A DNA stretch of 64,000 nt from Obrimoposthia wandeli (lineage: Eukaryota), in assembly GCA_977020255.1 (NCBI GenBank), contig CDROCS010003470.1:62001-126000 (forward strand), in the 5' to 3' direction. Every line of letters starts with the position of its first letter. Positions within the stretch are counted from its first letter, which is position 1. Of this stretch, positions 1 through 64,000 are shown one piece after another. The position numbers were made by a program, and so were the translations under genes. Below the pieces are notes generated by a model, which did not search any database, had not been told where the DNA came from, and worked only from the letters and a program-made list of their open reading frames with translations.

Positions 1-1468
1 TTCCAATTTCAGTTACAAAATTATCATAGTAAACAGTTGCATTATGTGAAATTACTCAAGTTTTAGACTCATCATTGACATTTTTAAACTGCACTGTTGC
101 GCCAAATTGAACCTTAGCCTGTCCTAATTTAGTCACTTCTGATTTTTTAAGACTTTCAATATTTGAATTTACACCTACGTTTAATAAAATTTTATTTCCT
201 AATAGCACCTTAACTATAACATACTTATTATTTAGGTGATACTCTATAGTAGCACCGTTTTCCCTAAGTTTCTTTGGTAAGACCTTATTAAGAAATTGGC
301 CTTGCCTCTTTCTTCCTACTGTTGCTGACAAACCTCCCACTAATTGAATGGGAAGACAACTATTTATATTAAACGATATCGGTGCTGCTGAAGTTGAGGC
401 AATCGCAGCTGATGTAGAAGGTGCTGGTGTGAATGGAGCTGCCGCAGATGATGAGGCGATAGCGTTTGTAGGTGCAACATTTGAGGTTGGGGTCACTCGA
501 TATGCAGTAGCTGATGTCATTGAAGCTGACATTGCTGGCGGGGAAGAACGGGCAGCAGCTGTTGAGACCAATGATGCATCTCCTAAAAGAAATATATTAA
601 AAATATATATATTTATTTTAATTATTACCTCTAAGGCGTGCAAAGATCGATGTAGGCACTAGCGATGGAGGATACATGATTACCACAGTCGACGAAGGAA
701 TCGGTTGTCTCAAGGTATTTCCTGGATTATATATATATATATATATTTAATTACAATTTTAAAAAATAATCAGAAAAATAGTAATAAAAAAATACCTGAT
801 GAAGCTGAATCAACTGTAGCTGGTTGGAAGTCTTCTTCATTGACAGAATTCATCCAGCTGTCGTCTGTTAACTCAAAAAAGTCTGATTCTTCGATGGCCT
901 CCAACCAGCTGTTGTCGCTCTACTGAGGCTGCTCCATCTCGAAATCTGACTGGGTGATATTTTCCATCCAGTCATTGTTCGAGAGTTGGGTTTCTGGCGC
1001 CAATTCCTCAAAGTCTTCTTGGGAGATGACGTTCATCCCCTCATTTTTAGTCATTTGAGTGGATGAGGCAGCTGCAGAATCGAGAGACGGGAGAGAAGAA
1101 CCAATCGCAGGACCGTAAATAGGTTGAAAGGTTGCAACTGGAATAGGAGCAAGAGCTGGAGTGACCTGCGAATCGCGCACCAATTGCACGATAGCTCTGT
1201 TCTTGTTGTTGGCCGTGAAACAGGACAAGTGATCTCGATGTTCATTGAAGAAGTCTCGAAAATCCTTGTCCTTCATATTTCTGTAGAAGGGGTAGACGAA
1301 GAATAGAAGCCCATTAGACTTTGTCCGATAGTAAGCGGACATTATCTCCATACAGGACTCTCCTCCATTCGTAGCCGAAACACCACAATATGCTGGAAAC
1401 AGGTTACACGTAATCTAAAAATAAATATTAATAAAGAAATAAAATATATAGCTTCTTACCATATTCAT
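1..1468 (-). pseudogene. Spliced gene (exons 1468-1460, 1414-796, 721-629, 582-<1), likely the 5' part of a protein-primed DNA polymerase B (terminal-protein side); in-frame TAG 920-922 and TGA 56-58
   Basis: GT-AG introns 1459-1415 (45 nt), 795-722 (74 nt) and 628-583 (46 nt) join ORFs 920..1351 and 56..643 into one frame. C-terminal IQLVGG...NGATIEYHLNN...IESLKKSEVTKLGQAKVQFGATVQFKNVNDESKT*VISHNATVYYDNF resembles, by eye, the region preceding the GSGW/exonuclease part of arthropod Polinton-type pPolB. The frame stays open past the TGA to the window edge. Confidence 0.6.
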
Positions 1469-1504
1469 TATTTAAAAAATCGGGGATTGAAATGTAAAAA
1501 GTGT

Positions 1505-1690
1505 TTGCTTATATACTAAATTTTATGCACACATGTTCTTTTCTTATTGGATGAAAATATTGAATTTATTCTTCCACTGAGAAGGATTGTTTATATGTTA
1601 TTGGTTGATAATATTATTTTTAATATATTTTATTCCTACAATTAAAAAGATTGTTCATTTGCATTTAGGTATTTTGTTATTGGCTGAAAA
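1505..1690 (-). promoter_or_regulatory. Pol II promoter of the pPolB-like gene: TATA box, three CCAAT boxes and an octamer
   Basis: On the minus strand: TATATAA at 1515-1509, about 40 nt upstream of ATG 1468; CCAAT at 1550-1546, 1604-1600 and 1683-1679; ATGCAAAT at 1664-1657. Confidence 0.5.
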
Positions 1691-1870
1691 TTTTAATTTG
1701 TAAATAATGAATTTCTCCAATTAGAATTATTGTTTATCTACATGTCAAGTAATAATAAGATAGTGAAGGAGGCCTTCGTGAGAGATAGAAAAAATGTAGA
1801 GGGAAGAATGAGGAGAGATATGAACAAAATAACTAGATAACGATTTATTGATTAGATCATAATTTTGCAT

Positions 1871-2344
1871 TCATATTAATGTAAACATAGGAAACATAAT
1901 AAAATGCATAAAAAACACAAGGTAATGAGGGTGAGAAAAGGGTAGGGTCACAACAGATAGACTTAAACATTTTTTATATGCACAATGGTCACCATGATCA
2001 CGATATGGACAGCAAATATTTCGTGGAATTTTTAATTTTTAATCACGTGAAATATTTAAGGTATTCAATCTCAATTTTGGAAAATAATTTTTTAAAGTCT
2101 TATACTTTTTGCCATCCAATTCATCTAAATAATAAAAAATTCCGTTTTCAATATCAAAATTAGATTTAATTGTATCGAAAATACATATTTCACAAAAAGC
2201 CTTATGTCTTTCTTTCCATTTTAATAAATGAAAATAATTAGTTAGATATAAATTAGTAAATTTTTTCTTATAATCTAAACTCCTAAACGGGATATCTACA
2301 TGAAAAATGAAATAAAAATGATGGAAAACGTCGCATATATCCAT
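1871..2344 (-). pseudogene. Unknown small protein (101 aa ORF, extendable through TAA 2039-2041 to about 157 codons) with Cys/His clusters
   Basis: ATG-initiated ORF MDICDVFHHF...HKAFCEIC...; the frame continues after the TAA as KLKIPRNICCPYRDHGDHCAYKKC... to TGA 1871-1873. Co-oriented with its neighbours. Confidence 0.45.
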
Positions 2345-2814
2345 AATACATAATTATTTTATAATATAATCTCCATTTATGTTAATGAAAGTCTATAATA
2401 TATTCTTGCATAATTACCCAAATATGTAGTGAATCCCTTTGTTTACAACGAATAAAAATAAAAATCCATTAATCAAAATTTATTATAATATCAAAGTACT
2501 CAGGATTTCTTTTTCTCGTTAGGATTGGTACATATTTTCAATTCTCCTAAGAATATTAGAATAAATTATATTAAATGTAAACCTACCTAAATATTTCGAA
2601 AGTAAATTACATATTTTATCTGCAACAATTTCCGGAATATCATTTTTCGAGAATTATTTTTTTCATAATCTTCCATTAAATCTGAATGTATAATTTATTC
2701 CAATTTATTTTATCAGCCATGTTCTAAAAAATATAATAGATACAATTGTTTATATTTAGTATGCTTATGTAAAATATTTAGACAATTATGTAACACTATA
2801 GATAATCAATAAAG

Positions 2815-3126
2815 TCAAAAAGGAAAATAATTTTCAAAATTATCTTCAGGTTTAATCTGAAGGATTCTCTTTCTTGCAGCTTGCTGATTGTCCTCCATCT
2901 TCACTCCTCTTTTTTCAGCTAGTTGCCTTTGCTCCAATTCAATCTTCCTATTCCACTCCACTATCCGCCGTCGCTCTGCTAGACGCCTGTCTTGAATCTC
3001 CACCCGACGATTCCACTCGGTCACAACAGCAACGTACAGATTCTGATTGAGGACCCTCTTTCTTAAATCTCCTTTCTTATCATTTCTTCTGATGTTTTCT
3101 TTTATTTTCGTCACGTAACTCTGCAT
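2815..3126 (-). CDS. Intact 103 aa SERTA-domain-like protein with a duplicated charged helix
   Basis: ATG at 3126. N-terminus YVTKIKENIRRNDKKGDLRKRVLNQNL resembles the SERTA pattern K-(x)n-DLRRxVLxxNxL. Tandem repeat VTEWNRRVEIQDRRLAERR / IVEWNRKIELEQRQLAEKR. Ends YFPF*. Confidence 0.55.
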   Translation of the reverse strand: MQSYVTKIKENIRRNDKKGDLRKRVLNQNLYVAVVTEWNRRVEIQDRRLAERRRIVEWNRKIELEQRQLAEKRGVKMEDNQQAARKRILQIKPEDNFENYFPF

Positions 3127-3291
3127 TTTAATCAATTAAATTTTTTTTATTTATGAAAAGGTAAATAAATTTGAACATATATATATAAATTTAAAATATT
3201 TTTAATCGAATCACATTCAATTAAATGATATATTTTTATTTATCAAATGAGAGATTATAATTTAATAAATCTATAACTAATCATTGCATTT

Positions 3292-3977
3292 CTATATAAA
3301 TAAACTTATATTTTTGAAATTAAAGAAATTTAAAGACATTTTGGGGAAAGGAGTATTTTCTCCCCATGTCTTCTCAATTATCTGGGTGGATTCCTGCAAC
3401 AACAAAAAACATTAATAAAATTTAAACATATAAATAATTTACCTCAATGACAGGCAGGTTAGCTTGTTTCACCAACTTGTCCTTCTTCCGATGGACCGTA
3501 TGGGTTTTGACCAGATGGCGTCACGGTTTCCTAACCGCCGCTTGCTTTTTATCCACCGGTTGAATAGGTGTCGCCTCTTCGAGAAAGTTCTCCACCTATG
3601 TGAATTATTAAATTTAATATCTAATTAAAAAATAATTTACCTTAGCATTATCTGGAGATGCTAGATATTAGAGCTCACTCCTTGGCAGCTCCTGGCTGCA
3701 TTGACTCGCCAAGTGTTGCGGTTCTATGAACCTCTCTGCCGTGGTCACTGACGGTGCCAAATCCAGTTGAAGTTTCTTAAAATGAAATTAAAAAACATTT
3801 AAAATAAATTAATAGGCTAACCTCATTCGTTGCCGTTATTCTCTTAACAGCACGTATCAAAGATTGCGGCTTTCTGGGCGGTTCAGGCCCCGTATTTTCT
3901 GCTATCGAAGTTGGAGTGAGACCATCCCAATCGTCAGTGAACAGGCACCATTCGTCCTCGTCCAATTCTGCCACCAT
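3292..3977 (-). pseudogene. Four-exon gene (3977-3822, 3775-3641, 3595-3443, 3393-3292), about 181 codons, acidic/aromatic N-terminus, unknown function; in-frame TAA 3668-3670 and TGA 3521-3523
   Basis: Three phase-0 GT-AG introns of 46, 45 and 49 nt, with the first three exons 156, 135 and 153 nt (all multiples of 3). Exons are GC-richer than the introns. Confidence 0.7.
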
Positions 3978-5779
3978 CGACTCGTTTGAAATTTAGAACA
4001 GAAGATTTACATATTTCGATTTTGAATTGGCCATATTGAAGTCCTGTCTTCAACACTTATGAGGACATATGGAAATTAATCTTTCAAATCGTTTACAATA
4101 GCAAAGTATTTCGATCGAATGCAAATATTTTTGGAAGCAGTAAAATAGCCGTTCAAAAATTAAACACAAAACGAAATTATTTCAGACTCTAAAAAAGGAT
4201 ATTTAGTTTTATTTTCTTGTGTCCACAATTTTTCTAAATGATTTAATTTTGTAATAAATAAAATCATAATTTAAAACGAAGTTTGTTGACAATTATTCAT
4301 GTAAGCTAAAAATGTGTGGTTAAAAATTTTGTCGACCAGTATATTATTAATTTTATAATATTTATAAACATTTCTTGTCGAAGTCCCAAAAAGATAACGC
4401 TAGTAATACTATATGTAAATCTTTGTAGATTATAATAAATGTATAAAGCAAGAAAATACGCTAAAGATAATGAAAATGGAAGGAAAAGGAAAATCTCAAA
4501 TTTGATATCAATATTTATTAAGATATTCTTAAACGGTCAGAAACGAGGTTAAATAGTTACAGTATAAAAATTGAAAAAGTGTAAATGTAAAGCAAAAAAC
4601 GACGTATTGTTAGAGACTCTAAAGTAAATAATTTATTTGTTAAAAAGTTAGCAAGATATTTCTTGGTCGTTAAAGATTTTTAAAAATCGTTGTGTGACCC
4701 TCATTTATTATGAATTACTCTTTTTTTTTATTTCGTAAAATAAATGCACTTTAAAATGACAAACTGTCCTGTTTATCAGCCTCACTTCATTGAGATTAAA
4801 AAGGAAAAATACTAAACATATATCATTAACAGAAAATATTTTCGCAATTTATTCTCCTTTCAATTTCATAATAACAACAAAAATCCAATGTATCTAATAA
4901 AGTAAATGAAAAAATAATTCATCTGCATTCTTTTTGAAGTTTAGCTGAGTATTAGGAGTCAATTTAGTAATTACTGAAAACATACTGAAGATACTACTCA
5001 CAAATACACTTTGTTTGATCCTCAAAGGTGATTTAATTGTAACTTTGTTCCTTCTTCATAGTTAAGGATACTTTTAAAATATTTGTATCATCAAAAATCC
5101 TCAAAAAGCATCATTTTGTCTCAACTGTCTCAACTACACAATTTGAAAATTTAGATAATATTATTTTTATCTTTTTTCTCTTCATCAACTTGGAATTATT
5201 AACGCGGAAAGAAATATGGATATTTTCGTAAGAATCGTCAGAAATCTTTATGCAAAGTAGTATTTCCATATTACTGTAGTTCATGTCAGTATTACTGTGT
5301 TCGGGTGTGGAAATTTTATTCAGTCTGCAGATAATATTTTATTCTAAAAGAAGCTAGAAATTACAGAAAAATAACACTACAGAGCAGTAATTAAAGTTAT
5401 ATATATTTTTTTAAATGATCACTAAATCAACGTGGATTTGTTACAATGTTTGATAAAGTTGAAGTGATTAGAGAAAAAGCTTTCTTTTTAAATTTAAGTT
5501 ATTTAGGTTGAAAAGCGGTTTTAAATTAAAACTAAAAGTCCTCAAAAATAGGGTAAGGACATAATCGCAACTGGGCATCTCTGAATATTAAGTAATCAAG
5601 TTTTATCAATTTATTATTTATAACTGTAGAAAACAGAGAAATTTTGAACTAAACAATAACTTTTTTTCGTGTTTCAATGTATTAAATAATTAAAGTTTTA
5701 AACGAAACTGCTTTCCAAAGAATTTTTGCTAGCACAATTTATGTAATAGGTTATATTAAAAAATAATCACCTTCATTTG

Positions 5780-7400: not shown

Positions 7401-7849
7401 GAGACAATTTAAAGGATAGTTTACATAAAAGTAAATATATAATAAATACATCTAAATAACTTATTGTAGTCAAAACACGAAAAACAAGATGGTGATTATT
7501 TATTAGAATTCTGATGGACACTAAAACACATATTATTAAAACAACCGTTTGTTTATTGTTAATCGACTTATCCCCACCAGATCATAAGAATCTTAATCGA
7601 AAACGTAGTCTTGGTATCTTATTGGCCATCGTGTGGTTCTCTTCTCATTCAGTTCTATGTTTCTTCTCGTTTCTACTCTTTGTTTGATTTTCTTAAATTA
7701 AGGAATACTCATTTAATCTCTTCATCGTATCATCATTACGTATTCGTATATCTGATTCATGCTTCGACAGCGTGTTCATATTGGTAGAAACTTGATATTT
7801 ACATGATGATATGATGTCCATTATTGTTCCTTTACTCCACCTTTCTGTA

Positions 7850-9170
7850 CATATTTGGTGTTGGTTGGGTTTTACTCAAACTATATATCCCTTTTTGAAC
7901 TTTGTGTTTATTTCTTCTGTATCATTCATTTTGGCAGGTTCTTTTTTGTATCTGAGTTTGGTCTGTACCTGTATGTAAGCCATGTGGGTGGTTGCATCTG
8001 CTGGCCAGGAATATTGTTAATCCAGTATAAAGCGTCTTGTATGGTTATTTCTCCTCTATATGCTATAGATTTAACAGTACGGTGGTGTCTTTCCACGATT
8101 CCATTTCCACTTGGTCGATTTACAAATCTATATATTGGATCGATTGATCATTTTTCCAACAGCGATTTGAATTCTCTAGAATGAAAACTTGTGAAAATAT
8201 CTACCAAGATTTCGGACAGTGCTCCTCTTTCGTAGAAAATTGATTCCAAATTGTTTAACAATCTCGTTGCTGCTTTCATAAGTCTTCATAAGGCATATCG
8301 CGAGGGCCCACAATCAATAAGTGTGAGATACTTCGTTAAGTCTACGGCCAGTCTAGTCCAATTACTATCGATGTTAAGGTTGCCTTAATCGTCTGGTTTT
8401 CGTAGCCATGATGCATCTTCAATGCTGCTTTCATCAACATCGATTCATACTCCAACTGCCCGTATGCTAGCACCACACCAAATTGTTCCTTTAGAACTTG
8501 TTACGTTCCACTTACCTGTAGCAGGATCAATTTCTTCCATTTTCGTGATCAGCCTTTTCAATTTATCTTCAATGTTCACTTGCACTTTATCATCCCGATT
8601 TCTGCAACATTGTCTCCTTAGGAATGCACAGGCCACACGGATCCAACTTACTATTGGGTAATGTTCAATAACTTGTTCACATGGAATACAAATCTCTTTT
8701 CGTTATATTTTCGATCTGACGTTCTGTAAAATTGACGTTTGATCTTTCCCACCATAGTATATTATTCACTTCTTTGACTGTCAATCATGATACTCTTACT
8801 TCGTTTGATTCATACAATTTTTCTGTTTTTTTGGACAGAATCCATACTTTAAAAAATGTGATGTAACCGTTTCCACTTTCACTTTGGTTTCATCGACGTA
8901 TAAGTCGTCTACGTATACATCAGTCGCTGCTTGAATGTCGGTATCTAATGACAATACTTTATCAACATCAGCTTTCATCACCATTGGAACAATATTCAGA
9001 CCAAATCCCATGCTCTTTTGAAAGGCCTGATGACAAATTATATCCAAGTAGCTACTGGAAACTAGACGATATAGTGACTGTGACGCTAGCTTTGAGAGTC
9101 AATTATATGTATTCAGACAAACATTTCAACCCCCGAGACATCCTGAATCCTTTTCGTCAGATAAATTGAA
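7850..9170 (-). mobile_element. Decayed Gypsy/Ty3 LTR-retrotransposon pol (RT, partial RNase H, integrase)
   Basis: RT MGFGLNIVP...DVYVDDLYVDE; RNase H DPATGKWNV...EDASWLRK; integrase WTRLAVD...YLTLIDCGPSRY...FYERGA...PSGNGIVERHHRTVK. Stops and deletions present. Confidence 0.85.
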
Positions 9171-10294: not shown

Positions 10295-11760
10295 TGTGGG
10301 GACGTTTCGAACTGGCCTTTTTAAAAGTCGGACGTTTTCGCGTAAGTGTGCTTGATCGACCAATCAGTGGCACGATGTTACCATCCGAAAGATTAAGTTT
10401 TGTTTTTGACACGAAATATATTTTGTGCCAATTAAATTTAGTTGAAGATGGTGTTCGTTATTTTTGAGATTTTTAGAAAATTTTATATTTGAGCCAATTT
10501 ATAAGAAATTGTTTTAACTTTTCTGTCCAATTATTCATTCAATTCAGGAATAATTACAAAATGGAGATTATCAATACCAAAAGAGGTGGCATAAAGCTTT
10601 GTTTACGAGGCTTCATCCATACTGTTAAAGTTGTAATGAAATCGATAGATGAAATAATCTGGCGTTGTGTGAAACGTCAGAGTTGTAATGGTGTTATTAA
10701 AACAAACAAAGAGAATGGGAATCATGTTGTTGGCAGAGAAAATACTCACCCTGAAGACCAGACAGCCATGGATATTGAAATGTATTGCCATTAAATGAAA
10801 AGTCAAGCCAGCACTACCAACGAAAAACCCAACCAAATCTCCACATTCTCTAATTCTGATGCTCCAGATTAGGTCAAAACCAAACTCATAGTTGCTGATA
10901 CAGTTAAAAGAGTACTCTATCGTGCTCGTGCCACTCACCGACCTAAAGATCCATAGACTCTACAACAGTTTACTATTGCTGATCATTGGTGCCAGATCAC
11001 TAGTGAAAACCCTACCAACTGCCTCGAGTATGAAAACGGCCCAGATGCACAGGAACGACTTCGTCGTATTTGCTACCGACTCCCATTTGCAACGTCTCGC
11101 CTCTTGTGACACTTGGTGCATGGATGGTACTTTTGCAGTTGCTCCTCACCTATTTCATCAGATGTATAGTGTTTGTATTGGTGTTTGTTTACCTCTTGTC
11201 TATGCTTTGCTCCAGCGTAAATCCCAGGCCACATGCGAAATCAAATTTCGTGTATTAGAGGAACCAGGATGTGATCCGTCTGTGGTGATATTTGATTTGA
11301 ACGAGGTGTACAGCACGCTCTCCAACCTGTGTTTGGTGATCATGTTCATATTCAGTACTGTTTCTACTATCTGACTCAGTCAACATGGCAAAAATTCAGT
11401 CATTAATAATCTTACTAATCTGTATGAAACTGATGACTTTCGTTTATTTAGTGGTAAAATAGATGCACTTGTCTTTTTCCCTACAGATCAGGTCACGGAA
11501 GGCATGAGTCACCTCAGAGAATCAGTCTCAGAAGAATATCGATGCATCCCTCCCATGTTCCTACCAGCACGATGGAACATGCACAATGTCACTATTGCAG
11601 ATCAGCCACGCACCAACAACGTTTCGGAAGGATGGAACAGCAAGTTTCAACCACTTGTTGGATATAATCATCATACAGTCTGGAAGCTCATTGAGTGCTT
11701 ACAAGGAGAGTTTGCTCAGATTTCAAAAATTTCAGAATTTATTTTAACATGGATATTTTA
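10295..11760 (+). mobile_element. MULE (Mutator-like) DNA transposon, FLYWCH plus MULE transposase pseudogene
   Basis: FLYWCH-like MEIINTKRGGIKLCLRGF...WRCVKRQSC...H from 10561; WCMDGTFAVAP...PLVYALLQRK; C-terminal PRTNNVSEGWNSKF. GGACGTTT(T)CG repeats at about 10297-10340 mark a likely left end. Confidence 0.85.
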
Positions 11761-13839
11761 AATTTAATTGAGATTTAAAAAGGATGGATGTGTATTCATT
11801 TTATTTACACCTTTTAAGGTATGAAATCAAAATATTTAGTATTGTAATCTTTGAATATTTAGGGCTGTCCATTATCATCTGGTAAATCACTTATAAAGTT
11901 TTTTGATGATGCACTAAATAGCACAAATTATCAAAACGTTTTTAAATCATTTTTATCTCCTGTTTTGATACCACAAATGTGAGAAAACATATGGAGAATT
12001 ATATCGAGAAGAGTTCATAACAATTCATTGGCATATGTTAACGTAGAACTTTAGAAAATGGTAAATTATTAAACAAAGTAAAGATTTTTTAAAAGGAACA
12101 AGCCAAGAGCTTTATACAAGTTTCTTTTAAAATATAAATAGTTTTTAAAATCATGAAAAATTTTTAGTATACATTTTGATTTTTATCCTAATAAATAACG
12201 TTTTATGTTTTATTTTAAAAGTATTTGTCAGTTACACTTCATATTTTAACATGGATTTTAACTGTATTGTAAATTTTTAAGAAACAAAAATTATCCTAAT
12301 GTTGTGTACTAAAAATATAGAAATAAGAACTAGAAATATGTTTTAGAAAACCTTTTTAATAAAATTGTAAATATATATATAAAAATATCGCACATTATAT
12401 TTAAAAACTGTATAAATTAAATGTTGTTTTCAAACTCAAAATTGTAATTAAAAAAGGTTTTTAACCTTTTTAAAGTATGTCTTATATTATTTATCTTATA
12501 CTCGACGTTGTAATACTTTAATACTGGTTTATTTTATTTAAATCATTCATATGATATTTTATTATTTTAAAATTATACATTGCATTAAAATAAGTACCAC
12601 GCTTCATTTAAAAAATCTACAAACAATATAAGTAAAACGCTATATTACAAACACACAACTAAGTTTGTTTAGCTGATTTTATTTGTAAATATGCTGCAGT
12701 TATTCTGTTTATCTCGTTGATTTTGTATTTTTAAGTGCGATACCTTTTTTGGCGATTCATATTTAAGTGTTATTTATAAACAGAATAAGACAAATTAAAT
12801 TATTAGATTTTTAAAAATTTCACAAATTCTTACTTTACTTAAAATAATAAAATAAACAGTTCAAAATATTCCCACAATTTGTATTGTATGTTTAATTTAC
12901 GCTTTATGTTATTAATATTATAAAATTTAATGACATTTTCTTCCGCAGTCATTTAATGTACTAAAATGAAAAGAACATTAAAAAATTGAATATTCAGAAA
13001 AGCTTTTTATGGGATAATAAAAGTAAAATATGGTTTTATTGTTTAATGTTTTATTACCAAATATTAAGGATGATGAAAATTTTTAGCAAGAAAAACATCA
13101 ATGAAATCGAAATGAAATAAATTATCATTAGATAGATACATATAAGTGGCTGTGAATAGAAATTTATGTAGCAATCTGAGATTAATGGCTAGTAATGTGC
13201 AACGCCCAAATTATGTCTAAGAATCAATTGTAAAACTACCGGGTATCTTACAGTGAATTCCTTCCAACATCGAAAGTATTATATCTACGAAAAAATCAAT
13301 TTATAGATAATTTATAGATTTTTTTATCAAATGAGCAGTGATTTTTTAATTGAAAATTTGATCATCGTGTAGCAATGTTTCACAACGGAGAACTTGATTA
13401 TATTCTGCAGAATTTTTATCAAACGTAATTGTAGAGTAATTCTTAGATTATTTGAAGCAGCTTATTGACACTCAATTGACAAGAAGTCAATACCATCAGT
13501 GTTAAATCATAATAAGTCATAACATAAGACATAACTTTATTCCATTAAATCGATCACAAACTTTTAAATTTCAATTAATTAATATTTAAGCCTTGGAAAC
13601 ATTTTGCAATATCAATAAAAATAACATTAAGATCACATAGTCTGGATGATCAAATACAGTAAATTTCATGATGAAAGTCAAGTGAAGAGTATGCAAAACA
13701 ATCCTTTCCATACTCCACTAAGGGTGTATATTATTATATAAAATACATGATCTTTTTACATTCTCTAATTTTATCAAACTAGATCAATTAACAACTTAAC
13801 GGACTCAATTTAATGTAGCGGTTACACCATTAATTTATT

Positions 13840-14250
13840 CTCAATCCTAATCTTTGCTACTCTCACGTTTACATCTTCTCCAGGCTCTAATTTTCCCATT
13901 CTACCTAATTTCTATTTGCTCCTCTCCTCTTGCTTATCGACTATCCACACGATGTCATCAATTAGTAATGCTGTCCGTGCCTCATGTCACTTTTGTCTTG
14001 GGGGCCCACATTGGTACAAACTCCTCCATCCATCGCTTCCATACCATACTAGTTAATCTTTGAATAAATTTCCATATGTGATTCGACTTCATGTCGTTAA
14101 TCCCAAAGTCCGTATCGGCATGTACCTGGTTAAGAAGTGGTTTAGAAGTGGGTGTAAACGCTTAATATCCTTTGCATCCAGTATTCGGTATATAGCCATC
14201 TTAGCACATTTTATCATTATCTCCAATACGCCTCCAAAATTCTTATTTTT
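13840..14250 (-). mobile_element. BEL/Pao LTR-retrotransposon integrase C-terminus (DUF5641-like) remnant
   Basis: NFGGVLEIMIKCAK...NHFL...VWKRWMEEFVP...DDIVWIVD...LGRM...PGEDVNVRVAKIR. Confidence 0.75.
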
Positions 14251-16639
14251 TGCTTTTCAAGTTTTTTTATGTTTTTCATGACTAATTACATTTTCAATGA
14301 TGCGGGTAGGCTGCCAATTTCAGTCAATAATTTTTCTATTCGATTATGACAACAGGGAGGCATGAGAACAAAAATAATAAGTTCTTTCAACATTAACTGT
14401 CCTCCAAGTTTAGGAAGAACAGAACATAAAATGGATTGTAAAAAGGCTAATTTGTAAAGTAGAGTTGGCCTACCTGCGATGTTGTCTGTTTGAGTGGTCC
14501 TCTAACATATATGAAATTCACTGTATCGTCACTGTATCGCCCTACTATCTTTTCCTTGGATAAAAACGGTGAAATCTATTCAACGCTCGATGATTACAGG
14601 CAAAATTATGGATAACAATTTGCGTATTTCTATGTGAAATCTACAAGATCTTGTTGTGTTGTCGCTAAACCACTAGTACCAGATAAGTCATTAAAACATT
14701 TATCGCTATTTAACTTGTGTTTCATTTTGCTCGCTAAATATTTTGGTAGTAGTGATAAACAAGATCCTGAATATATTCAAAAAATATTTTATCCTCGGTC
14801 GTATGAGTTTTTTCATTGCAGTTTTGTTCTTATAATTTGATAATATTTGAATGCTTAGTTGTTACATATTTTGTGATAAAGGTTAATTTTTCGGTGTGGT
14901 ATCTTACGGGTACCTTTGGGGATGTCTTTCCGTCGTGTTGAATGTGGGTCTGATTGTCCATTTTGTGTGAAAGTGTAGTAGAGTTATTGTTGCTGCAAGA
15001 TGGAGAATGGACCATGTTATCTGGTGAGTTATATGGTATTTTGCTCATCTTTATTGCAAGTTGATACTTTTTTATAAGTTCAATATTTTTGACCTTGATT
15101 TCGGCTAGTTCATCAAATTTAGCAGTGTTATTTTCTTTAGAGTTTTAATGATCATTTATGTTGCAGTTTCGCTCTCTATGCATACTTTAAAATTGTTAGA
15201 AATTATGTGTGAATGAATATAATTTTTTTTAAAAATTGGAAAATTTCTTATAAACAACATAAAAATTGATTTTTTGTGTATTGATCTATAACAAAATAAG
15301 TTCAATGCAATTACAAATTTATTAAACACTTCAAATTATTTATCCGAATTATATTCAGATTATTATGATACTTTAACAATTTTATCTGGACATAATTTAA
15401 TAACAAATCATATTTAATAACAAAAGGAATAAGCCACATGCAGTCCTACTATTAATAGAACTCACAATTGAGGTCATCAGTTGCGTATTTTAAATCCTGG
15501 TAAAGTTTGGAAAGTCACACCAAGTTTAAACGGTTGTTTTCTTAACAATTACTATTAGATGAAAGCAAAAAATAAAATATAACAGTGATAAAACTTCAAG
15601 GTTGTTTAATTGATATCGTCTTTAGCTTTGTCAAAGTAATTTATTTTGTTATCAAAACATATTTTATATCTTCAAGCTTATGAAATGCTACTTTGAAGAA
15701 GGAAACTACTCTTAGATTTGAATACTTTGTTGAATATGCAATGATACAACGGAGAAAACTGATAAAAGTCTGATGTGGGATCTCAAGAGAATTTAGGGGT
15801 TGATGGAAATGTTTGTTCTCATATAATAATTTGTTGAGATGTAATAGGTGTTACATTATCTTGCAAGTATAGGTTAGATAGCCCATTTCCCAGTCAACTA
15901 CCAAAGAACCCATATCTCATATACGAATACAATTCTAGATAAACTGATGTACCTGATTACTAGTTGATCACATTTTCTTTATCTAATTAATCATATCATA
16001 AAACTTGTTAAATTTCTTAACTCTACATATAATAATGTGAATAAATCAATTCATTACACAAAGTTAAAAAATAAAACATAAAAAAGACTCAAACTACAAC
16101 GAACCTTATTTGTGCATATGTTAATTAAACTCATATATACATAAATGTTCATAATATCTTTATTTCTTATTATTAGAGAATCACTAATTCGTTGATTAAT
16201 ATCAGAATAAAAGCAGAAAAGTAGCAAAAATATGTGATGTGCAATTGAATCAATTACCAAATTACTAGTCAGTGACTTTGAGGTGGCGTCCTGGGACTTA
16301 TATTGGAGACTTCGTTCTGCAGTCGAGATTCGAGGCAGACTGATTCATTAGTGAAACAATTGATCAAGGCAGCTTCAAAGCAAAGTAGCATGATCGGTTG
16401 TATAATACAAACTAGCTTCTGAATCATTTCATAATATATAACTATTATTTGGTAATGAAGACATTCGCTTATCAATCTGGAATCCATTACAGTTAGATGA
16501 GTCGATCATTATCTGGCTCAAATTTGACACCGGGGTAAAAAATATAGATCTTATCAGCTTCTAAAACACCAGACAATCACTAAAAAGATTTACCCTATAC
16601 AGCAGAGATGTCAAAAAGTTACCACCAATAACATGTCAA

Positions 16640-17278
16640 ATATTATGAAGATAGTGAAATGATCTATGATCTTGCTTTGGTTAGGGATATAATTGAATAT
16701 TTATCATATTTGAACTTAAAGTTATAAGGTAAAAATAAATTAATAACTGTATTATAGGATGAAATCAAATGCTTGAAGGCCAAAATGAAACTATAGAAAT
16801 GTCACATTACAAAGAACTTAAAACTAACAATAAACAATCAGATTTGAGCTTTTCAAAATATTTTAAAAACATACTGAAAACACTTGCAGAAGGATTTAAT
16901 GAAAAATTCGGGGAATTTGCATCGTATGAAGATGATTTTGCCCTATTTGGCACCATTTTCTTATACTACTGCAAAAGCAAAAGACTATATGCACATGGAA
17001 CATTTAGAGATAGTTAGATTCAGCACTTAAAATTTAAAAAACAGCTGAGAAATTTGTCTCTAAAAAGTGTTTCTCAAATATCTTGATAGCATAATAAAGA
17101 ATGAATAACTGAATAATTCTTTGTAATTTTAATCGATTCTAACAATTTTGAAGAAATAGGGCAACTGTAGTGGTAACACATAATTTCATAATAATATTTC
17201 CTTTGATTTAGAAGAGGCCCGCTGAATGTTTAGACTGGCAACTGTGGCCCAAAGTACCATTTGAGTTTGACACTCCTG
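16640..17278 (+). mobile_element. hAT-Charlie (GTF2IRD2/EPM2AIP1-like) transposase 3' remnant with right end
   Basis: DLALVRDIIEYLSYLNLKL*GKNKLI...FNEKFGEF...FALF; Charlie-type terminus GTGGCCC...GAGTTTGACACTCCTG ending at 17278. Confidence 0.7.
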
Positions 17279-18789
17279 CTATACAGTAAACTCTCTAGAA
17301 TTTACAATAGATTTAATTCGAAATGATTTTGAATTTTTTTACTATAAAAATTATTATCTTCAATTCAAATTTTTAGAAATAATTTTATATTTATATCTGA
17401 AAATGCAAACTTTTTATTACTTCTAAGATGCAAATTCGAAGGAAAGTTGGAAAATAAATTGTATAAATTTTATAACTTTTAAATGCATTTTCTTTAATTC
17501 GAAAATTTTAATTGTGATACTGAATATTCAAATTAAAGGGATTTTACTGTCATGGGTTATTTTACATTTTTCATTTCTTATTTGTGAATATTAAATTAGT
17601 TATATATTTTCCACAATAATGTTAATTACTTTTAATGTTTAATTAAATATTTTATTATTAATTTTATTTTGCTATTTTAGATACCTAAAACAAAAATCCC
17701 TCAAGTAAAATGCGACGCTGCATAATAAATCCTTTATACCAAAAGTACGACTGACGTTTTCGGGAGTATCGTAGGCACAGTCTCTGTAATTTATTACCTT
17801 TGTAAAACCAACAAAAAAAAAATTACGTTACATTAAATTTTGTACGAAGCTCCTTGATGAATCTGAAATAAAAACGACTATATTGTAGCTTCAAAAGGAC
17901 TTCAACTATTACGCTTTTTTAATATCAAAGCCGGGATAATTAAACATATATCTGTATAGCAACCATTGGCTCATATTTTAAAAACTATTATTAAAATATT
18001 AAATTGTAATATAAAATAATTTTATTCCAATTGTAAGGGGATATGAAAGATCCTATTTGTTTATGGGTTGTTTATATCATTGATAAGTTTATTTTCAAAA
18101 CGAAGACTTTAGAAGTATTCCGATTGAAATTGTTCAATCATTTTAGTCACACAAAATTAAAACCATAATTGATGCATTGAGTAAAAGTTATCTACTCTAC
18201 CATAAAGTTATCAATAAGGCAGCCAAAAAACTCTGTTTTCTCATTTCTTGGTCACTCAATTAAATATTTGTCGACATATTCATCATTTTCTAAACCTATA
18301 GAAAATTGATTATGGATGCGATTCAAAAATTTACTGGGATACATATAAATTTCAAAAATCGTGTCTCGCATTGTATAAAATTGCATTCACAGAAAAAATT
18401 TGGGTTTTTTATTATTTTTTTCAGATTTTTTAATCAGGATTTCAACCTTAAGATACAGATATTTCTCAAACTAACAAACTTTTAAAAATTAATTTATTAA
18501 TTATTGAAATTTTACTAAAATTACACATCCAAATTAATTAAAGCTGAATATTTTAAAATAAAAACTGAAATTAAATATTTGTAAAAATTCATAGAATTTT
18601 CATCACTGCAGAGAATTCACAAAAAAACTGATATTTTATCTAAATTACGAAAATCTCCGACTGCAACAGTAATGTGAGAAGGGCACATTGAAATGAGTGT
18701 AAGTGAAGAAAATGAAGAAAATCAGTTCAAAGTGATAAGATCAAGAAAGCATTATCAAGGTAGGCATTTTTGTTCTGAAAATATTAACA

Positions 18790-19075
18790 CGTTAGATATG
18801 GCACGGTGAAACGTTATTGACAACAAATATCGTATACCAGGTGCGTGTGTGGTCAGCTCATAAAATTCCAAAATAAAGTAAGGCGAAACACTAAATATAT
18901 TTCTGTGGCTCAATATGGAACGATGAACAAGCGATACCTGTTCACGTTTGGGCTGGATTTGGATTCTTTTTAATGGTACTGTCAATGCAGAAAAATATTA
19001 TTTAACATTGATCAATCATTTTATTCCTTATTTGACATTGGAAGTAAAGAAAACAATTTTTCAACAAGATGGGTA
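18790..19075 (+). mobile_element. Tc1/mariner-superfamily transposase fragment
   Basis: PVHVWAGF...FFNGTVNAEKY...FIPYL...IFQQDG. Confidence 0.6.
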
Positions 19076-20442
19076 TATGCGTAACTTGAAGTCAGCTTCA
19101 TAGTACAATGATATTCATCAAATTAGTAATAACAAATAGAAAAGATTTATTTTAACCCATTTTTTACTTTAAAATGTTTCTTATTTACTTTATCAATCCA
19201 AAATATTTCGCATGTAGTCAAATTGTAAAACGGGCAAAACTGTAAAAGTTTGTTAAAATACCTTTTTAAATATTCTGTGTATCCGAAATTTAATGTTTCA
19301 TCTTAAATCTTATTTTACTCAAATACGTAATTTTTGTTTTTTATTTGACTTTATTCGGAATATCGAAATAGACAATTTCCAAAATTGTATTTACTGAATA
19401 CAAGACAACTCTACAGAGAATTAGTCTTTCCATTTATAGAGGGATTGTGGAGTATTGTTAGACTTGTTAGAATAAAAAATACGACTCACCGAGGTTGCCG
19501 CTATATGTTCCCCTTCTCTAGCCAATCATAATCGAATTCAGTCTCACCCCAGATCGATGTATTTCCCATGAGCACGCCTACAACATCGATGCTCTTTTCC
19601 CTACATGTCCCATCTTATCTCCATAATGTTTCATTCTTCACAGATAATCCTACAATTTCCAGATGTTGAGAATTTGAACTTCTGATTTTATTTTGAGAAT
19701 GTTTTTTTCTTTGCCGCAAAGATGTATTCAGAATGTAAAGAAACGTTATTTAAGATATATTTTTATGAAACTATTTAAAACTTTACAAATAAGATAATTT
19801 TCTCTCTTTAAATGCTTAGGTAAACATTGGGCAACATATCCTCAACATTTTCTTGATTACAAACCAGACATTACAATTTGGGCTAGTGAGTTGTTATCTA
19901 ATAATTTTGTAGAGACGTAAAAGTCACGTTACAAAAATATATAATTTCCGATATTTTCTAAGTCAAAGTATCATAAAAAGAGTTATTTAGTCGCATGGTC
20001 AAAAATCAGTGATTTAAATCATGTAAAAATAACTGACTGTTTCGAATATCTTCCGTAGTATGGTAAAAGAAAATAAGTGTGAAAGAAAGTGACAGAATAC
20101 ACGACATATGTAGTGTTGAACTTTCAAATATTGGTTAAATCAGGGCATTGTTTAAAAGCATGTGGTCATGCAGCAAGTTTTAAAAAAATTAACTTTTTGT
20201 CTTTTTTTCATTTTTGTTGCATGGACTACTTTTAGAAAATGCTTATTTACCAGTATTTGAAACAGATAATGAAATTGTCATTTTAAAGTCACATAATTAA
20301 ATATGTTTTTATTGGTAAATAAATAAAAATTAATATAACGTTAAGATTTATAAGATTATTATTAGATTTATACTAATTTAAAAATTCGTTAGAAAAACTT
20401 TATTTTGTTTATGTTTGTATCCAATATTTCCAAGACTGCATT

Positions 20443-20830
20443 TTAATACACCAGGACAAACTCGCATTTTAGATGCTGTTGGAGACTCAAAGACTTCATC
20501 GTCGTCTGAAACACTTCATACTGCAGAATGTTATGAATGAGCTCGTCTAGTTTGCCTTCTTCCCTCTCCCTAGCCACAACAGTTCTAGGCGATGGGAGCA
20601 TGACCATTGGTTGGTCGACACGAGTGACGTCATTAGGTCCCTCCACAAAGCTGGCTTTAGTTTAACAGTGTTTGATCGTATGCCTAGATACCTTCTTCTA
20701 AACTCTGCTCGTCAGGAGCATGGCTTTCAACTTGCTAATCCACTTTGCAACCACTTGATCTACAATGTCTACCTCAGTGTTATATGTGACATCAAAGAAC
20801 TTCTGATGTCTAAAATAAGCTTTCCAGGTC
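20443..20830 (-). mobile_element. Possible hAT (ZNF862-like) transposase remnant
   Basis: GC-elevated coding-like island containing WSCSHRLEL (cf. C.xHRLEL) and SKLKAM in different frames. Weak. Confidence 0.25.
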
Positions 20831-21499
20831 GTGATAATTTATTAAGTAAGTGATTTTACAGTTAAAATTTCCGTCGTAATCCAATATAGATTCAGTAAGC
20901 GGGTGGATTAATTATCAGTGGATTTATAAAGAGGGAACTACTATAGTAAAATAAAAAGCTTCAAAACATTTAAATTAAAAGAGCACACTGAACTGTCAAT
21001 TTGTTTAAAATTTAATGTTATTTTGCACTTAATAGTTATATTTGTGGTAATTTTGTTCATTGTGTAAGTATGTCACGACCATGCAACAAAATGAACTCTT
21101 TGGTCCATATCAGAACTTTTCCCCATTCAGACTTTGTATTGTTATTATCAGTTTGCAAATAGATCCATAATAGAATCAAGACGTTAAATATATTTAAAGA
21201 ATTTTATAAATATACTTTCTTTTATTGATTCATCACCTATCGGAATATTTTACTTGGATTGCAATTTTTAAACTGTTTACACACAATCAAATTCAATATC
21301 ACAGTTGTAAAAATGAATTCCAACAACTGCCTAGAACGATTATGTATGACTATAAGAATATTTTGGAATTTTTGTAATGATTTATGAAAGCTTTCAAAAT
21401 TCGAATCAATAAAAAGTAAGTGTTTATTTAATTAGTCGCCAAACATTTCTTCTTCTCTAAGACGTTTTTCTAAAACAATTATTATATGCTTGTAGTAAG

Positions 21500-21690
21500 C
21501 ACTTTAATATTTGCATTATTCTCGCATCAGCTCTTCTTCCACAATCTTTGTCATGTTGTTTACTCGATCTTGTGTTGTTTCCTCCGTTAAAGCATATCCA
21601 TTCATTTTCTTTGTGTGTCCTTGTTTTCTTTAAAACTAACCATTTTTCCATGCAGGAAATTGGACAGTCATCGGCGTATACCAGATTGAC
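21500..21690 (-). mobile_element. Possible LINE RT fragment
   Basis: NLVYADDC motif immediately upstream of ORF 21457..21651 in the same frame. Confidence 0.3.
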
Positions 21691-21869
21691 TTAGCCTCAA
21701 GAAAATTTGCCATAACTTGAATGGACATAAACAGATTTTTATCTAATTCAATCATAAGCAAGTCTCCTACTGTCTCTATGGTTTAGACCCCTTGAATTGC
21801 CTTTCAGACGTCTTGTAAACACATTTGTTTATCTAAATCTGAATGTAATAATAATAATAATAAATAACC

Positions 21870-22335
21870 CTCTCCATTCAGATAGGCGTACACAAGTCTA
21901 TGTTTTATCTCTAAATATATTCTAACAGCATTGAATTAAGCAAAAACTACCTAAAACTTACACTTCGATTTTTTCACGCATTGGGATTGTTTTAACCGTA
22001 CCTCCTGATTAGTTTTCTGTTTTATTTGTGTATGAAATTTGGAAGTATATTACCATAGATTCGTCTGAAACGTCACATAACACATAAAAACTGCATTTTG
22101 ATAATTTTCTATGTTGATATTCATCTTACGTTATGTTGTTCATTTCGTTCTCTGACCTATACATTAAAATTACACGCAAACAAATGTTCTACACATGCAT
22201 GTTAGTGTGTGTATGTTTCCATATATTTATAGAATTCAATTTTTATTTGTGGTATTCCTTGACGTGGAACGGTAAGTTTTTAATTATTTATGTTTATCGT
22301 TAATTTCATTTTATAATAGGTTATGGAATTCACCT
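21870..22335. repeat. Dispersed repeat, copy 1 (homologous to 50880-51312, same orientation)
   Basis: Collinear shared blocks CCATTCAGATA, ACCTCCTGATT, TTCGTCTGAAACGTCA and GTTTATCGTTAATTTCATTTTAT. Preceded by an (AAT)n tract at about 21847-21868. Confidence 0.75.
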
Positions 22336-24176
22336 TTCAGTTTTACCTGATGTATTTAATACACAATGAATCGTTAATTAGATTGATACAATAAAATTAA
22401 ACATTGTGGTTAAAGTGAATAGATGCAGTATTTTGGATTCTTCTAAAACACTTTAATCATAATAAAGAAGGTCAACGTTGAATGGATTATCGCAACTTAT
22501 TCTATCGGTTGTATTTTTGTTTTATAATGACCTCAGGACGGCCAATTAATATGAAAAACCCAGTAGCATTGTCGAAACACAATACTAATGGTCGGAGCTT
22601 TGTTCACAGACGCTTTGATGAGCATCGCGGCAACAGCTGATTAATGGTTAAGTTGCTAATATACCATGGGAGGATTTCTTTCTTCATCTTTCTTAAACAG
22701 CTCAGTTATCTGAATATTAGTTTCATAATTTGAATTAAATCACGTACAAAATGCCTGAAATAAAATGAGTTTTTTTACTAAAAGATTATTTTAATAAACT
22801 TTAAATTTATTCAATTTGTGATTCCAAGAAAATATTAAATTTGATAAATTTGATGTGTATGTTTTTCATTTGCATATATTAAGTATTTATTCTTAGAAAA
22901 TGCTTTAATGAAAATTTTTATAAACACAAAATATAAATAACATTTGAAATAAAGTCTATCATGATGTTTGGTTTGCTGTCATCTTTCTGCTAATTGTCTG
23001 ATTCCACGAAAATATCAGTCCTTGGAATTAAACTCGAAAAACTCCACTACCATTTTCCGCATTATTCAGAAGAATGTTATCGATCAAAATATGTGGTAAT
23101 CTGAAGGAGCTAAGTCTGGCTATAAGCTGGATGTAGTAACAATTCGATATTGGCAAAACGTTGCAGATTTTCAGACGTAGATGTGTGCGATCTCGGGTTA
23201 TCATACTGCAGTACTATTTTCTTTCGGTTATTTAAATAAGGATATTAATCTTTCAAAGATGAATACATTATATATAATTGTTCACAATAGAGATTAGATG
23301 TTATTATTTCACCCTCATGAAGCAGCTCAAAGTGAATTATTAGTTCAAAATTCCACCAAACACACAGTAAGTACTTCTGATCGAACCTTCAGATTTTAGC
23401 TACCGGTTCAGCGGACTGAACAACATCTAATCACTGGTTTAATTTATCTGAGTATTTTCGTCATATTTCATCTAATTTTCACAAATTTCTACTCTATTTA
23501 TATTTTGATTTTCTGACATTTCGTTAGGTTCAATTTTACAACTTAAATTTATCTTTCCTAATTGCCGTAGCCCTCATTTATGGTATCTTTAAAAAGCCCT
23601 AAATCAGCACCTAAATCTCGTATAGACATTATTGAATAAGCTTCAACTATTTTACAAAGATCTTTAGAATCGTATGACAAAGACCTTCCTAATCTAGGTC
23701 TAACTATAAGACTAAATCTCCTGACATAAATATTTTATATAAATTTTGAGCTGTACGTAATGAAACTACATTTTCTTCTTCGTATCTTGAAGCTTCAGAA
23801 GCTTTCACGCCTTGTTTGAAATAATGTCTTAAAACTGAAAAAATTCAATGTTTGTATCACTCATTATAATAAAGCTCAAAATATATTATTAAATATTTTT
23901 AGAATTTTCAATTTTTGCACTTTCAAATGTTATATAGTTTGAATATATTTTAACAAACGTCTCTCAGTATAATAGATCTTAGGAATGGTCATGAAAAAAA
24001 CGAAAATACTTATGATACACCCTAACAGTTTAACCAGATTTTTGCCATATTATATTGACATTTCTTTTTCTGTTTTAAAAAAATTAACATGTTTGCTTAT
24101 TTGATTTGCTACATCTGAGTGGCATCCTTATATATTCGCACACAATACAAAGCTAATTCTCCAAAACTAATGTCAG

Positions 24177-35599: not shown

Positions 35600-36805
35600 A
35601 TACTGGATAATTATCTAAAGATATATGAAAAGCCAACAGATTCACCAGACAAAAAAAGTCAACCAAAGAAAAATTAAAGGTGCAACAGACTATAAAGAGG
35701 ATTATCTGAAATTCAGTTTCGTGTCATCCAATAATTCTCCTCATTGTGAGCTTCAATGGATCATATGCCCTAAAAGGTGGTCAAATTAAGCAATACAATT
35801 GCTGAGTCACTCATTTACCATCTTGTGAGGAAATTGTCAAAACTAACCCTGGAATCAAGACTGTGAAAGAAATTGAAAAGTAACTCTTTCGAATAATACA
35901 ATCGCAGAACGACCATTAATTCAAAGAATTTGTGAATTAAAAAAAACACTACATATTAATGAATGTACGGTCGTTAGCAACTGTTGTCTTTTAATTGCAC
36001 TTGTTCGAATTTCTGAAAATAAATTCTTGAAAAAGCATTAAAAGCTTTAAATTTATTCTGCAAAGAACTTCAAAAAGAGACAGCTCGAATTCTAAAACTT
36101 GTAGAACAACATCTACGCAAGCTCAAGGAAAAGCTTCTTCATGACTTCGAATTAACGGAGACAAAGAAGTTTGATTGGGTGGGAAATCCATTTAGATCTT
36201 TATCAGAGCACTTTGCATTTGATTTAGCAATGAAAGAAAATGGAAGAGCTCTGGACTTTAAAAATGATCGCACGTTTGAAGTTGAGTTTAAAGATATTCC
36301 ATTAACTCAGTTTTGGTCAGTGATAGAAAAGACGTTTCCATCTATCGGAGAAATAACTATAAAGATTCTTTTACCATTTGCTACAATATATCTATAAAAA
36401 TCTCGATCATGAATAACATGTAAATATTTTGACCATAGGCTCTAATATAAAAAGCTGTGTTCGCAGAAGCAAGCTCAAGTATCTCACTAAAATGAGAAGG
36501 TACTATAAGTATTACTTGATGTGAGTTTTTTTGTATTTCAGATTGAATTAATGTTGATGCTAAAAAATGTTTTTTTATAAAATAAACTGTACATTTTACA
36601 AAGTCAGCAATCTTTTTGTGCATATTCAAGCTTACTTTTGTATACATAATAATTATATAAAATAAATGTCTTAAAATTGTTGTTCTTATTTATTATAACC
36701 TGAGTTTAAAAATGTAATGTTAAAAGAAAACTGTTTCTTCTGTGAGCCGTGAAAGTATTCATATTTGAAAAGTGTGCTGTGGCATGAAAAGATTGGGAAA
36801 CACTG
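35600..36805 (+). mobile_element. hAT-Charlie (ZBED5/SCAND3-like) internally deleted transposase with right TIR
   Basis: TIAESLI..EEIVK; EIEK..SNNTI; WVGNPF...DRTFEVEFKDIPLTQFW...ILLPFATIYL; terminus AAGATTGGGAAACACTG ending at 36805. Confidence 0.8.
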
Positions 36806-61016: not shown

Positions 61017-61113
61017 AAATTTCACTTCACAAACATGTACTGTTTTAAAGAACAGAGGTACCCCATCCTCCCTAGGGATAGGGGGTGGATTAGACCGGAT
61101 ACATTCACCTACT
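61017..61113 (+). repeat. Short copy of the element terminus seen inverted at 63676-63760
   Basis: AAATTTCACTTCACAAACATGTACTGTTTTAAAG...GGTGGATTAGACCGGATACATTCACCTACT matches the reverse complement of 63676-63760. Confidence 0.8.
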
Positions 61114-63675: not shown

Positions 63676-64000
63676 AGTAGGTGGATGTGTCCGGTCTAAT
63701 CCACACCCGCCTCCCCCCCTTGTCCTTTAAAACCGTGCATGTGTGTGGAGTGAAATTTCTTGTAGTTGTGTGGAGTGAAATTTCGTGCATGTGTGTGTGG
63801 AGTGAAATTTCATGCATGTGTGTGAAGTTAAATTTTCAAACCGCCCCCCCCACCCAACACTCAAAAAACTAATTAACCCCATATAACACACTTTAAAATT
63901 GAAAATCTCATAATGCTCCCAAAAAAGTAAGGAAGGTCCTGAGAGGCCGTTTAGTGGGCCAAAGCGTGCCCTCCGGGCCCGCGGTGGTTTAACGAGCAAC
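63676..64000 (-). mobile_element. Terminus of a non-autonomous element (Helitron-like?) containing a minisatellite; continues beyond the window
   Basis: Minus-strand end GTGGAT-(12 nt)-ATCCAC hairpin followed by CTACT, shared with 61017-61113. Four units of TGTGTGGAGTGAAATTTC-type repeat at about 63735-63837. GC-rich palindromic segment near 63945-63990. Confidence 0.5.

What the first reader, a model, noticed from the sequence alone, without database searches (positions are those of the whole stretch)
2815..3126. Intact SERTA-like ORF inside the virus-like cassette
Seen: the only uninterrupted gene of the cassette, with an N-terminal K...DLRKRVLNQNL motif followed by a duplicated 19-aa charged helix. 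Known: SERTA-domain proteins (SERTAD1/TRIP-Br, CDCA4, Drosophila Taranis) interact with CDK4 and E2F/DP transcription. Inference: a virus-borne SERTA mimic could promote S-phase entry without an LxCxE motif, and none was seen in these ORFs. I do not know of a described Polinton SERTA gene.
Basis: partly seen in the sequence, partly recalled or inferred. Interest (0 to 1): 0.72.

Follow-up and report, generated by a model that had tools for sequence, protein, structure and literature searches.

The report
Polinton helical-hairpin gene, SERTA-like not SERTA
A small gene carried by a very abundant virus-like transposon (Polinton) of what is likely a flatworm shows purifying selection and is predicted to fold as a helical hairpin that likely docks on a host regulator, possibly the phosphatase PP2A-B55 as SERTA proteins do, but it fails the SERTA family tests and binding is untested.

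Summary
The ORF is real and lies inside a Polinton: 34 of 40 copies have a core gene nearby, and the genome gives over 13,000 first-look candidates. It is a stand-alone gene under purifying selection: shared variants pN/pS 0.13 against 0.58 for singletons in copies picked by a neighbour gene. The window copy is open but not fully intact, and the repeat period is 20, not 19. SERTA membership is not supported: no Pfam match in 34 of 34 copies, both published IER/SERTAD motifs fail, and the SERTAD PEST and acidic modules are not evident. The resemblance is still specific. AlphaFold predicts a hairpin whose second helix starts at the motif. Six of nine CDCA4 residues important for PP2A-B55 binding have conserved counterparts, but the most sensitive one (Ile62) faces Asn in 77 of 79 copies. 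Such patterns arise by chance in 0.3-2% of controls. No complex model could be run. Verdict: a new lineage-specific Polinton accessory gene, likely a host-directed adaptor; B55 docking about 20%, captured SERTA about 6%.

The parts
2815..3126 (-). 103-aa open frame (P0001), accessory gene of Polinton family 1
   Evidence: selection
3073..3126 (-). Predicted helix 1 of the hairpin (residues 1-18), with K7, the putative counterpart of CDCA4 K44
   Evidence: AlphaFold models of natural copies; K in 72 of 77 copies
3040..3066 (-). SERTA-like, B55-rule motif (L21-N29) at the start of predicted helix 2; N27 breaks the SERTA pattern
2908..3024 (-). Two-copy 20-aa-period repeat within a long E/R/K-rich predicted helix (residues 35-53 and 55-73)
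   Evidence: 10 of 19 identical; 1 of 2000 shuffles
2815..2844 (-). Last nine residues and stop, not shared with most copies
3182..3187 (-). TATA-like hexamer about 60 nt upstream of the ATG (weak evidence in AT-rich DNA)
   Evidence: 44 of 52 copies, mostly at -56 to -61
3341..3990 (-). Remnant of the upstream, apparently spliced acidic gene A; the window copy ends here and lacks the right terminal repeat
1958..2392 (-). Broken copy (2 stops) of a 162-aa neighbour gene shared with the sister Polinton family
56..1351 (-). Gene D, multi-exon gene directly upstream of pPolB
1..3990 (.). Right part of a decayed Polinton copy of about 15 kb; about 11 kb with pPolB, capsid-like, ATPase, integrase and TBP genes and the left terminal repeat lie left of the window (L013, L014)

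Best explanation
The ORF is a stand-alone, purifying-selected accessory gene of one high-copy Polinton family, and its product is predicted to be a helical hairpin on a long charged helix that likely acts as an early, host-directed adaptor, with PP2A-B55 the leading but untested target. Shown: the gene is real, selected and family-specific, and lies upstream of pPolB inside the terminal repeats. Predicted: helix 1, a two-residue turn, then one helix of about 70 residues carrying the 20-aa repeat and ending in a basic tail. Inferred: the start of helix 2 (L21, K23, V25, L26, N29) with K7 would dock in the B55 substrate pocket, as SERTA/IER hairpins and adenovirus E4orf4 do, and so block or redirect PP2A to favour replication of the element; the charged helix would be a spacer and the tail a nuclear signal. 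B55 as the target is about 0.2 absolute. A convergent or heavily eroded look-alike is more likely than a SERTAD family member.
For: Copies: 150 scored of 15,863 candidates. Linkage: core gene in 34 of 40 flanks, pPolB in 30 of 40; terminal repeat upstream in 7 of 8 loci. Selection: pN/pS shared 0.13 (15 N, 30 S) against singletons 0.58 (61 N, 27 S), p=9e-5, in 27 copies picked by the neighbour gene; the hairpin has the lowest shared ratio (0.16 against 0.28 and 0.23; difference not tested). Models: H2-23 + H26-95, pLDDT 85; same hairpin from a single sequence. [quoted passage not shown] CDCA4 L56, V60, L61, N64 are identical, R58 is K, and a K44 counterpart exists. Position upstream of PolB is where adintovirus 'Oncoid' genes sit (PMC8502044). 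A sister family has a full virion module without this gene (0 of 11 loci). One host B55 paralogue keeps the patch-1 motifs.
Against: CDCA4 Ile62, the most sensitive residue (7% binding left), faces Asn in 77 of 79 copies and an aliphatic residue in none; Thr65 (28%) faces Leu. The Lys sits at i-14, not i-12, and the modelled turn is only two residues. The core rule is loose: 35% of shuffles meet it; the fuller pattern is met by 1.9% of shuffles and 3 of 920 other open stretches, and it was chosen after seeing the sequence. Chance SERTA-like strings exist in this genome, including a stop-containing antisense frame of the same Polinton that scores up to 20.5 bits. No homologue outside the family was found to test deep conservation. 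There is no expression, localisation or interaction evidence.
Confidence: 0.5

Rival explanations
1. A basic nucleic-acid-binding or self-oligomerising regulator of the element's own transcription or replication, working with gene A or the element's TBP; the SERTA look is chance.
For: 26 K/R against 16 D/E in 103 aa; selection spans the whole protein, repeats and tail included; the element encodes its own TBP; the fold matches generic coiled-coil hairpins.
Against: No DNA-binding family or fold match; the sister family has pPolB and TBP without this gene.
Confidence: 0.25
2. A virion cement or core protein (the Cah class, adenovirus protein IX-like, or a basic core protein).
For: Small, all-helical and basic; Cah genes are defined by such helical character and are present in only some adintoviruses (PMC11071296 passages).
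Against: It lies on the pPolB strand, apart from the ATPase-capsid-protease block on the other strand; the sister family's virion block has no homologue.
Confidence: 0.15
3. A captured SERTAD-family gene that drives S phase through CDK4 and E2F/DP.
For: Residue-level match to the second SERTA helix; hairpin model; Polintons here do capture host-type genes such as TBP and an IAP.
Against: No PF06031 match in 34 of 34 copies; published motifs met by 0 of 34; no PEST or acidic activation region as described for TRIP-Br proteins, the protein being net basic; no host SERTA gene over the cut-off as donor (exon-split genes could be missed).
Confidence: 0.06
4. A non-functional open frame kept open by chance in a repeated element.
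For: Many copies are broken: 40 of 77 are open for 90 aa or more; no RNA holder was listed (not counted as evidence).
Against: Shared variants are depleted of amino-acid changes to the same degree as pPolB (0.21 and 0.15; 0.13 in the unbiased set); start codon and upstream spacing are conserved.
Confidence: 0.03

Closest known systems
IER/SERTAD superfamily B55-binding helical hairpins (CDCA4, SERTAD1-4, IER2/5; 10.1101/2023.08.29.555174, PMC11446282)
   Same: Predicted helix-turn-helix; L, K/R, V, L, N at i, i+2, i+4, i+5, i+8 at the start of helix 2; a conserved Lys in helix 1.
   Different: Asn where CDCA4 has Ile62; Lys at i-14; helix-1 consensus unmet; no Pfam score; a charged helical rod with a 20-aa repeat instead of PEST and acidic regions; carried by a Polinton.
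Adenovirus E4orf4 (viral PP2A-B55 binder)
   Same: Small basic accessory protein of a pPolB-encoding DNA virus lineage; E4orf4 uses the same B55 helix-binding mode.
   Different: E4orf4 is a three-helix bundle with shown binding; no sequence relationship was found and binding here is untested.
Adintovirus/Polinton 'Oncoid' accessory genes (PMC8502044)
   Same: Position upstream of PolB in an animal Polinton.
   Different: No LxCxE and no cysteine pairs, so it does not meet the Oncoid definition.
Cah-class helical genes of adintoviruses (PMC11071296)
   Same: All-helical, patchily distributed.
   Different: Not in the virion gene block; no evidence of capsid association.

Membership tests
SERTA domain (PF06031) / SERTAD | Profile match over the curated cut-off (25 bits) | tested here: not met
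   No match for P0001, its N-terminal 43 aa or any of 34 copies at E<=10; none of the 22 inspected, of 33, weak genome hits is this ORF
SERTA domain (PF06031) / SERTAD | Helix-2 consensus [H/K/R]xxL[L/I]x[S/N] (10.1101/2023.08.29.555174) | tested here: not met
   0 of 34 full; 32 of 34 if the L/I position is ignored
SERTA domain (PF06031) / SERTAD | Helix-1 consensus with Ser and Lys three residues apart | tested here: not met
   0 of 34 full; the hydrophobic-x-K-hydrophobic end in 31 of 34
SERTA domain (PF06031) / SERTAD | Helical hairpin fold | tested here: met
   Predicted hairpin, pLDDT 85; the fold is generic
SERTA domain (PF06031) / SERTAD | Structural match specifically to IER5/SERTA | tested here: inconclusive
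   Only tied generic hairpins, best Z 8.4-8.7
SERTAD/TRIP-Br proteins | PEST region and C-terminal acidic activation domain (PMC2671481) | tested here: not met
   Net basic in all three segments, helical throughout; judged from composition, no PEST predictor run
SERTAD/TRIP-Br proteins | Binding to CDK4, E2F/DP or PP2A-B55 | not tested
B55-docking helices (works-like test; PMC11446282) | [quoted passage not shown] | tested here: met
   Core in 33 of 34, with upstream Lys in 30 of 34; but 35% and 18% of shuffles also meet these
IER family (PF05760) | Profile match | tested here: not met
   No match in 34 copies; the genome search rang nowhere and is uninformative
Oncoid genes | LxCxE or CR1 motif with CxxC pairs | tested here: not met
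   No LxCxE in 34 of 34; no Cys in P0001; CR1 not scanned
Polinton/Maverick (carrier element) | Protein-primed PolB | tested here: met
   L013 frame has PolB motifs and is 54-58% identical to 30 PF03175-positive loci; it does not hit Pfam by itself
Polinton/Maverick (carrier element) | Retroviral-type integrase and packaging ATPase | tested here: met
   rve E=1e-12; Pox_A32 only E=0.018, below cut-off
Polinton/Maverick (carrier element) | Terminal inverted repeats enclosing the gene | tested here: met
   Left end of the window copy recurs, inverted, upstream of gene A in 7 of 8 other copies
Polinton/Maverick (carrier element) | Double jelly-roll major capsid protein | tested here: inconclusive
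   Assigned by eye and by gene order; no library match
Polinton/Maverick (carrier element) | Target-site duplication | not tested
   The window copy lacks its right end

The most novel reading that the evidence does not exclude
A Polinton family that expanded to thousands of copies in a flatworm genome carries the first virus-borne SERTA/IER-type hairpin, a PP2A-B55 hijacker that parallels adenovirus E4orf4 and replaces the LxCxE route of cell-cycle control; acquired together with gene A, it may have helped the expansion.
Probability: 0.2. Interest if true: 0.75.

Novelty: new member of a known kind. Interest (0 to 1): 0.42.

Why it matters
Polinton accessory genes are almost all untested. This one is shown to be selected, is present in thousands of copies and has a precise, cheap test. 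If it docks on PP2A-B55, phosphatase hijacking, known from adenovirus E4orf4, would extend to Polintons through a host-type hairpin, in an animal group where Polintons are PIWI-repressed and de-silenced during differentiation (PMC8532177 passages). If not, it is an ordinary orphan helical gene and a clear case of how SERTA-like strings arise by chance.

Tried and rejected
Splice acceptor instead of a start (ATG-CAG): rejected, the AG is not kept while the ATG and upstream spacing are. bZIP basic region near residues 80-89 (recalled motif): rejected by eye, the Asn varies and no zipper follows. Homologue searches without result: 5.8-billion protein set, 5 candidates and none significant; ESM Atlas twice; viral contigs; metagenome contigs, one 18-residue match at a contig end, not followed; PDB sequences; NCBIfam, below cut-off only. 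Fold searches: no E<=0.001, and IER5 not among the listed rows, which does not exclude it. Host SERTA gene: none over cut-off; of 22 inspected hits (of 33), 14 are one antisense frame of the Polinton protease gene, 2 match other repeats, 6 are short unexplained strings. Sister family: no homologue in 11 of 11 loci (the twelfth held an inserted family-1 copy). Expression: no RNA holder listed; contigs of two runs of one sample cover the stretch but show neither expression nor copy number. Earlier findings: three look-ups, nothing returned.

Full report
Observation. The frame 2815-3126 (-) is open and gives the 103-aa protein described. The internal duplication has a 20-residue period with 10 of 19 identities, reached by 1 of 2000 shuffles. 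The start is not a disguised splice acceptor: 41 of 52 copies have ATG there, and 44 of 52 have a TATA-like hexamer upstream, mostly at -56 to -61. However, 61 of 77 copies have an in-frame ATG five codons further up, which the window copy lacks, and in 14 of 25 copies of the second set the window's start position is not ATG but TTG. The last nine residues are not shared either. The window copy is therefore open but slightly eroded at both ends.

Setting. The window lies in a 1.35-Gb AT-rich animal genome. A host B55 exon has flatworm proteins as its best named hits after two fish entries with unusually high scores, so I infer a flatworm. The 11 kb left of the window hold a broken pPolB, a capsid-like frame, an ATPase, an rve integrase (E=1e-12) and a TBP (E=2.5e-9). 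The pPolB frame does not hit Pfam itself but is 54-58% identical to 30 PF03175-positive loci. The left end of this copy recurs inverted upstream of gene A in 7 of 8 other copies, so the ORF lies within the terminal repeats. The window copy stops at about 3,990. I fetched 40 flanks from rows 13-57, leaving out 5 rows already held; 34 of 40 have a core gene and 30 of 40 have pPolB within the 8 kb. First-look candidates number 15,863 and 13,252; these are loose counts, with 150 scored each time. A sister family has the order pPolB, gene D, TBP, ATPase, integrase, capsid-like, protease-like and the 162-aa gene, with no homologue of the ORF in 11 of 11 loci. The ORF and gene A are thus specific to one family as far as sampled.

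Selection. Using observed codons only, variants shared by three or more copies have pN/pS 0.21 against 0.73 for singletons (52 copies picked by protein score, so biased; pPolB gives 0.15 against 0.61). In 27 of 29 loci picked by the neighbour gene, the values are 0.13 against 0.58 (p=9e-5). Over 79 copies the hairpin gives 0.16, the repeats 0.28 and the tail 0.23. Copies are related, so the p-values are indicative. The pattern fits a gene selected in active elements that decays after insertion.

SERTA tests. Pfam gives no SERTA or IER match for the protein, its N-terminus or any of 34 open copies. PF06031 over the genome has no hit over the cut-off. None of the 22 hits I inspected (of 33) is this ORF, and 14 are one stop-containing antisense frame of the Polinton protease gene, which scores up to 20.5 bits. 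The two consensus motifs of the IER5 paper (passages) are met by 0 of 34; helix 2 fails at one position only. The PEST and acidic regions of TRIP-Br proteins (PMC2671481 passages) are not evident. It should not be filed as SERTA.

What it may work like. AlphaFold on a natural copy gives helix 2-23 and helix 26-95 (pLDDT 85, pTM 0.42), and the same hairpin from 52 residues alone. Fold searches return only tied generic hairpins. PMC11446282 (passages, first part of section 6, and one passage of table S2) states that B55 binders use hydrophobic residues at i, i+4 and i+5 and a basic residue at i+2 at the start of a helix, with a Lys from the preceding helix. L21 is the first residue of the predicted helix 2. 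Of nine CDCA4 positions whose alanine change left 57% binding or less, four are identical (L56, V60, L61, N64), one is conservative (R58/K23), one has a counterpart two residues further off (K44/K7), one is a different hydrophobic residue (V66/Y31), and two mismatch (I62/N27, T65/L30). The matched residues are kept in 72-77 of 77-79 copies, V25 as an aliphatic residue in 75 of 79. Against this, I62 is the most sensitive position (7%) and N27 is fixed in 77 of 79 copies. The core rule is met by 35% of shuffles, and the fuller pattern by 1.9% of shuffles and 3 of 920 other open stretches, which are not independent. The host has two B55 genes, one keeping the patch-1 motifs by alignment to a fish B55; patch 3 was not checked. 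No complex model could be run.

Mechanism and odds. Shown: a real, selected, family-specific gene upstream of pPolB, the position of adintovirus Oncoid genes (PMC8502044 passages), without LxCxE. Predicted: hairpin, charged rod, basic tail. Inferred: a host-directed adaptor (0.5), with B55 docking about 0.2 within that. Rivals: regulator of the element itself (0.25), virion helical protein (0.15; PMC11071296 passages), captured SERTAD acting through CDK4/E2F-DP (0.06), non-functional (0.03). These odds are my judgement, not computed.

Novelty. No paper in the library holds both SERTA and Polinton. None of the 10 listed papers with 'SERTA domain' and 'viral genome' appears, from title and abstract start, to describe a virus-encoded SERTA. 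None of the 10 listed Polinton accessory-gene papers contains PP2A. Searches were seen as listings. The library lacks most subscription papers. The gene is a new orphan of a known kind of element. The novel reading is open at about 0.2 and can be settled by one complex prediction and one pull-down.

Noticed in passing
L013:1010-1420 (+); L177:677-1183 (+): Both Polinton families encode a TATA-binding-protein homologue (PF00352 over cut-off). TBP is listed among MELD virus genes in a legend of PMC8502044, so it is not unprecedented.
   Followed up: partly
L143:720-1619 (+): Another Polinton copy, divergent from family 1, carries an IAP-type gene with BIR and RING domains between TBP and the ATPase.
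   Followed up: partly
L131:5389-6099 (+); window 3341-3990 (-): Gene A, upstream of the ORF, is long, acidic and apparently spliced, with two IDL(L/T)S strings that look like SUMO-interacting motifs (recalled motif); no Pfam match; shared-variant pN/pS 0.22.
   Followed up: partly
L097:1426-1914 (+); window 1958-2392 (-): The 162-aa neighbour is conserved in both families (about 45%), is selected, and looks by eye like a DEDD-type nuclease with a Cys/His tail; no library match.
   Followed up: partly
window 56-1450 and 3390-3830 (-): Short AT-rich GT-AG intron-like gaps of about 55-70 nt interrupt genes A and D inside the Polinton (seen); no RNA to test them.
   Followed up: no
G000, genome-wide: Polinton genes give 13,000-24,000 first-look candidates each, and many pPolB frames are open for over 1,200 aa, which suggests a very large and recent expansion.
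   Followed up: partly
L026-L030 (G000:C243:583400-633399): Several copies lie close together, some head to head in inverted orientation.
   Followed up: no
window 61017-61113 and 63675-63824: Further Polinton terminal-repeat-like stretches near the right end of the window.
   Followed up: no
window 7600-9100 (-), 10561-11761 (+), 36023-36397 (+): Decayed LTR-retrotransposon, MULE-like and hAT-like remnants, judged by eye from motifs.
   Followed up: no
L034:1501-1581 (+), L136, L138: Antisense or repeat-derived frames that look strikingly SERTA-like by eye yet are non-coding or stop-bounded; a caution for motif-by-eye calls.
   Followed up: yes
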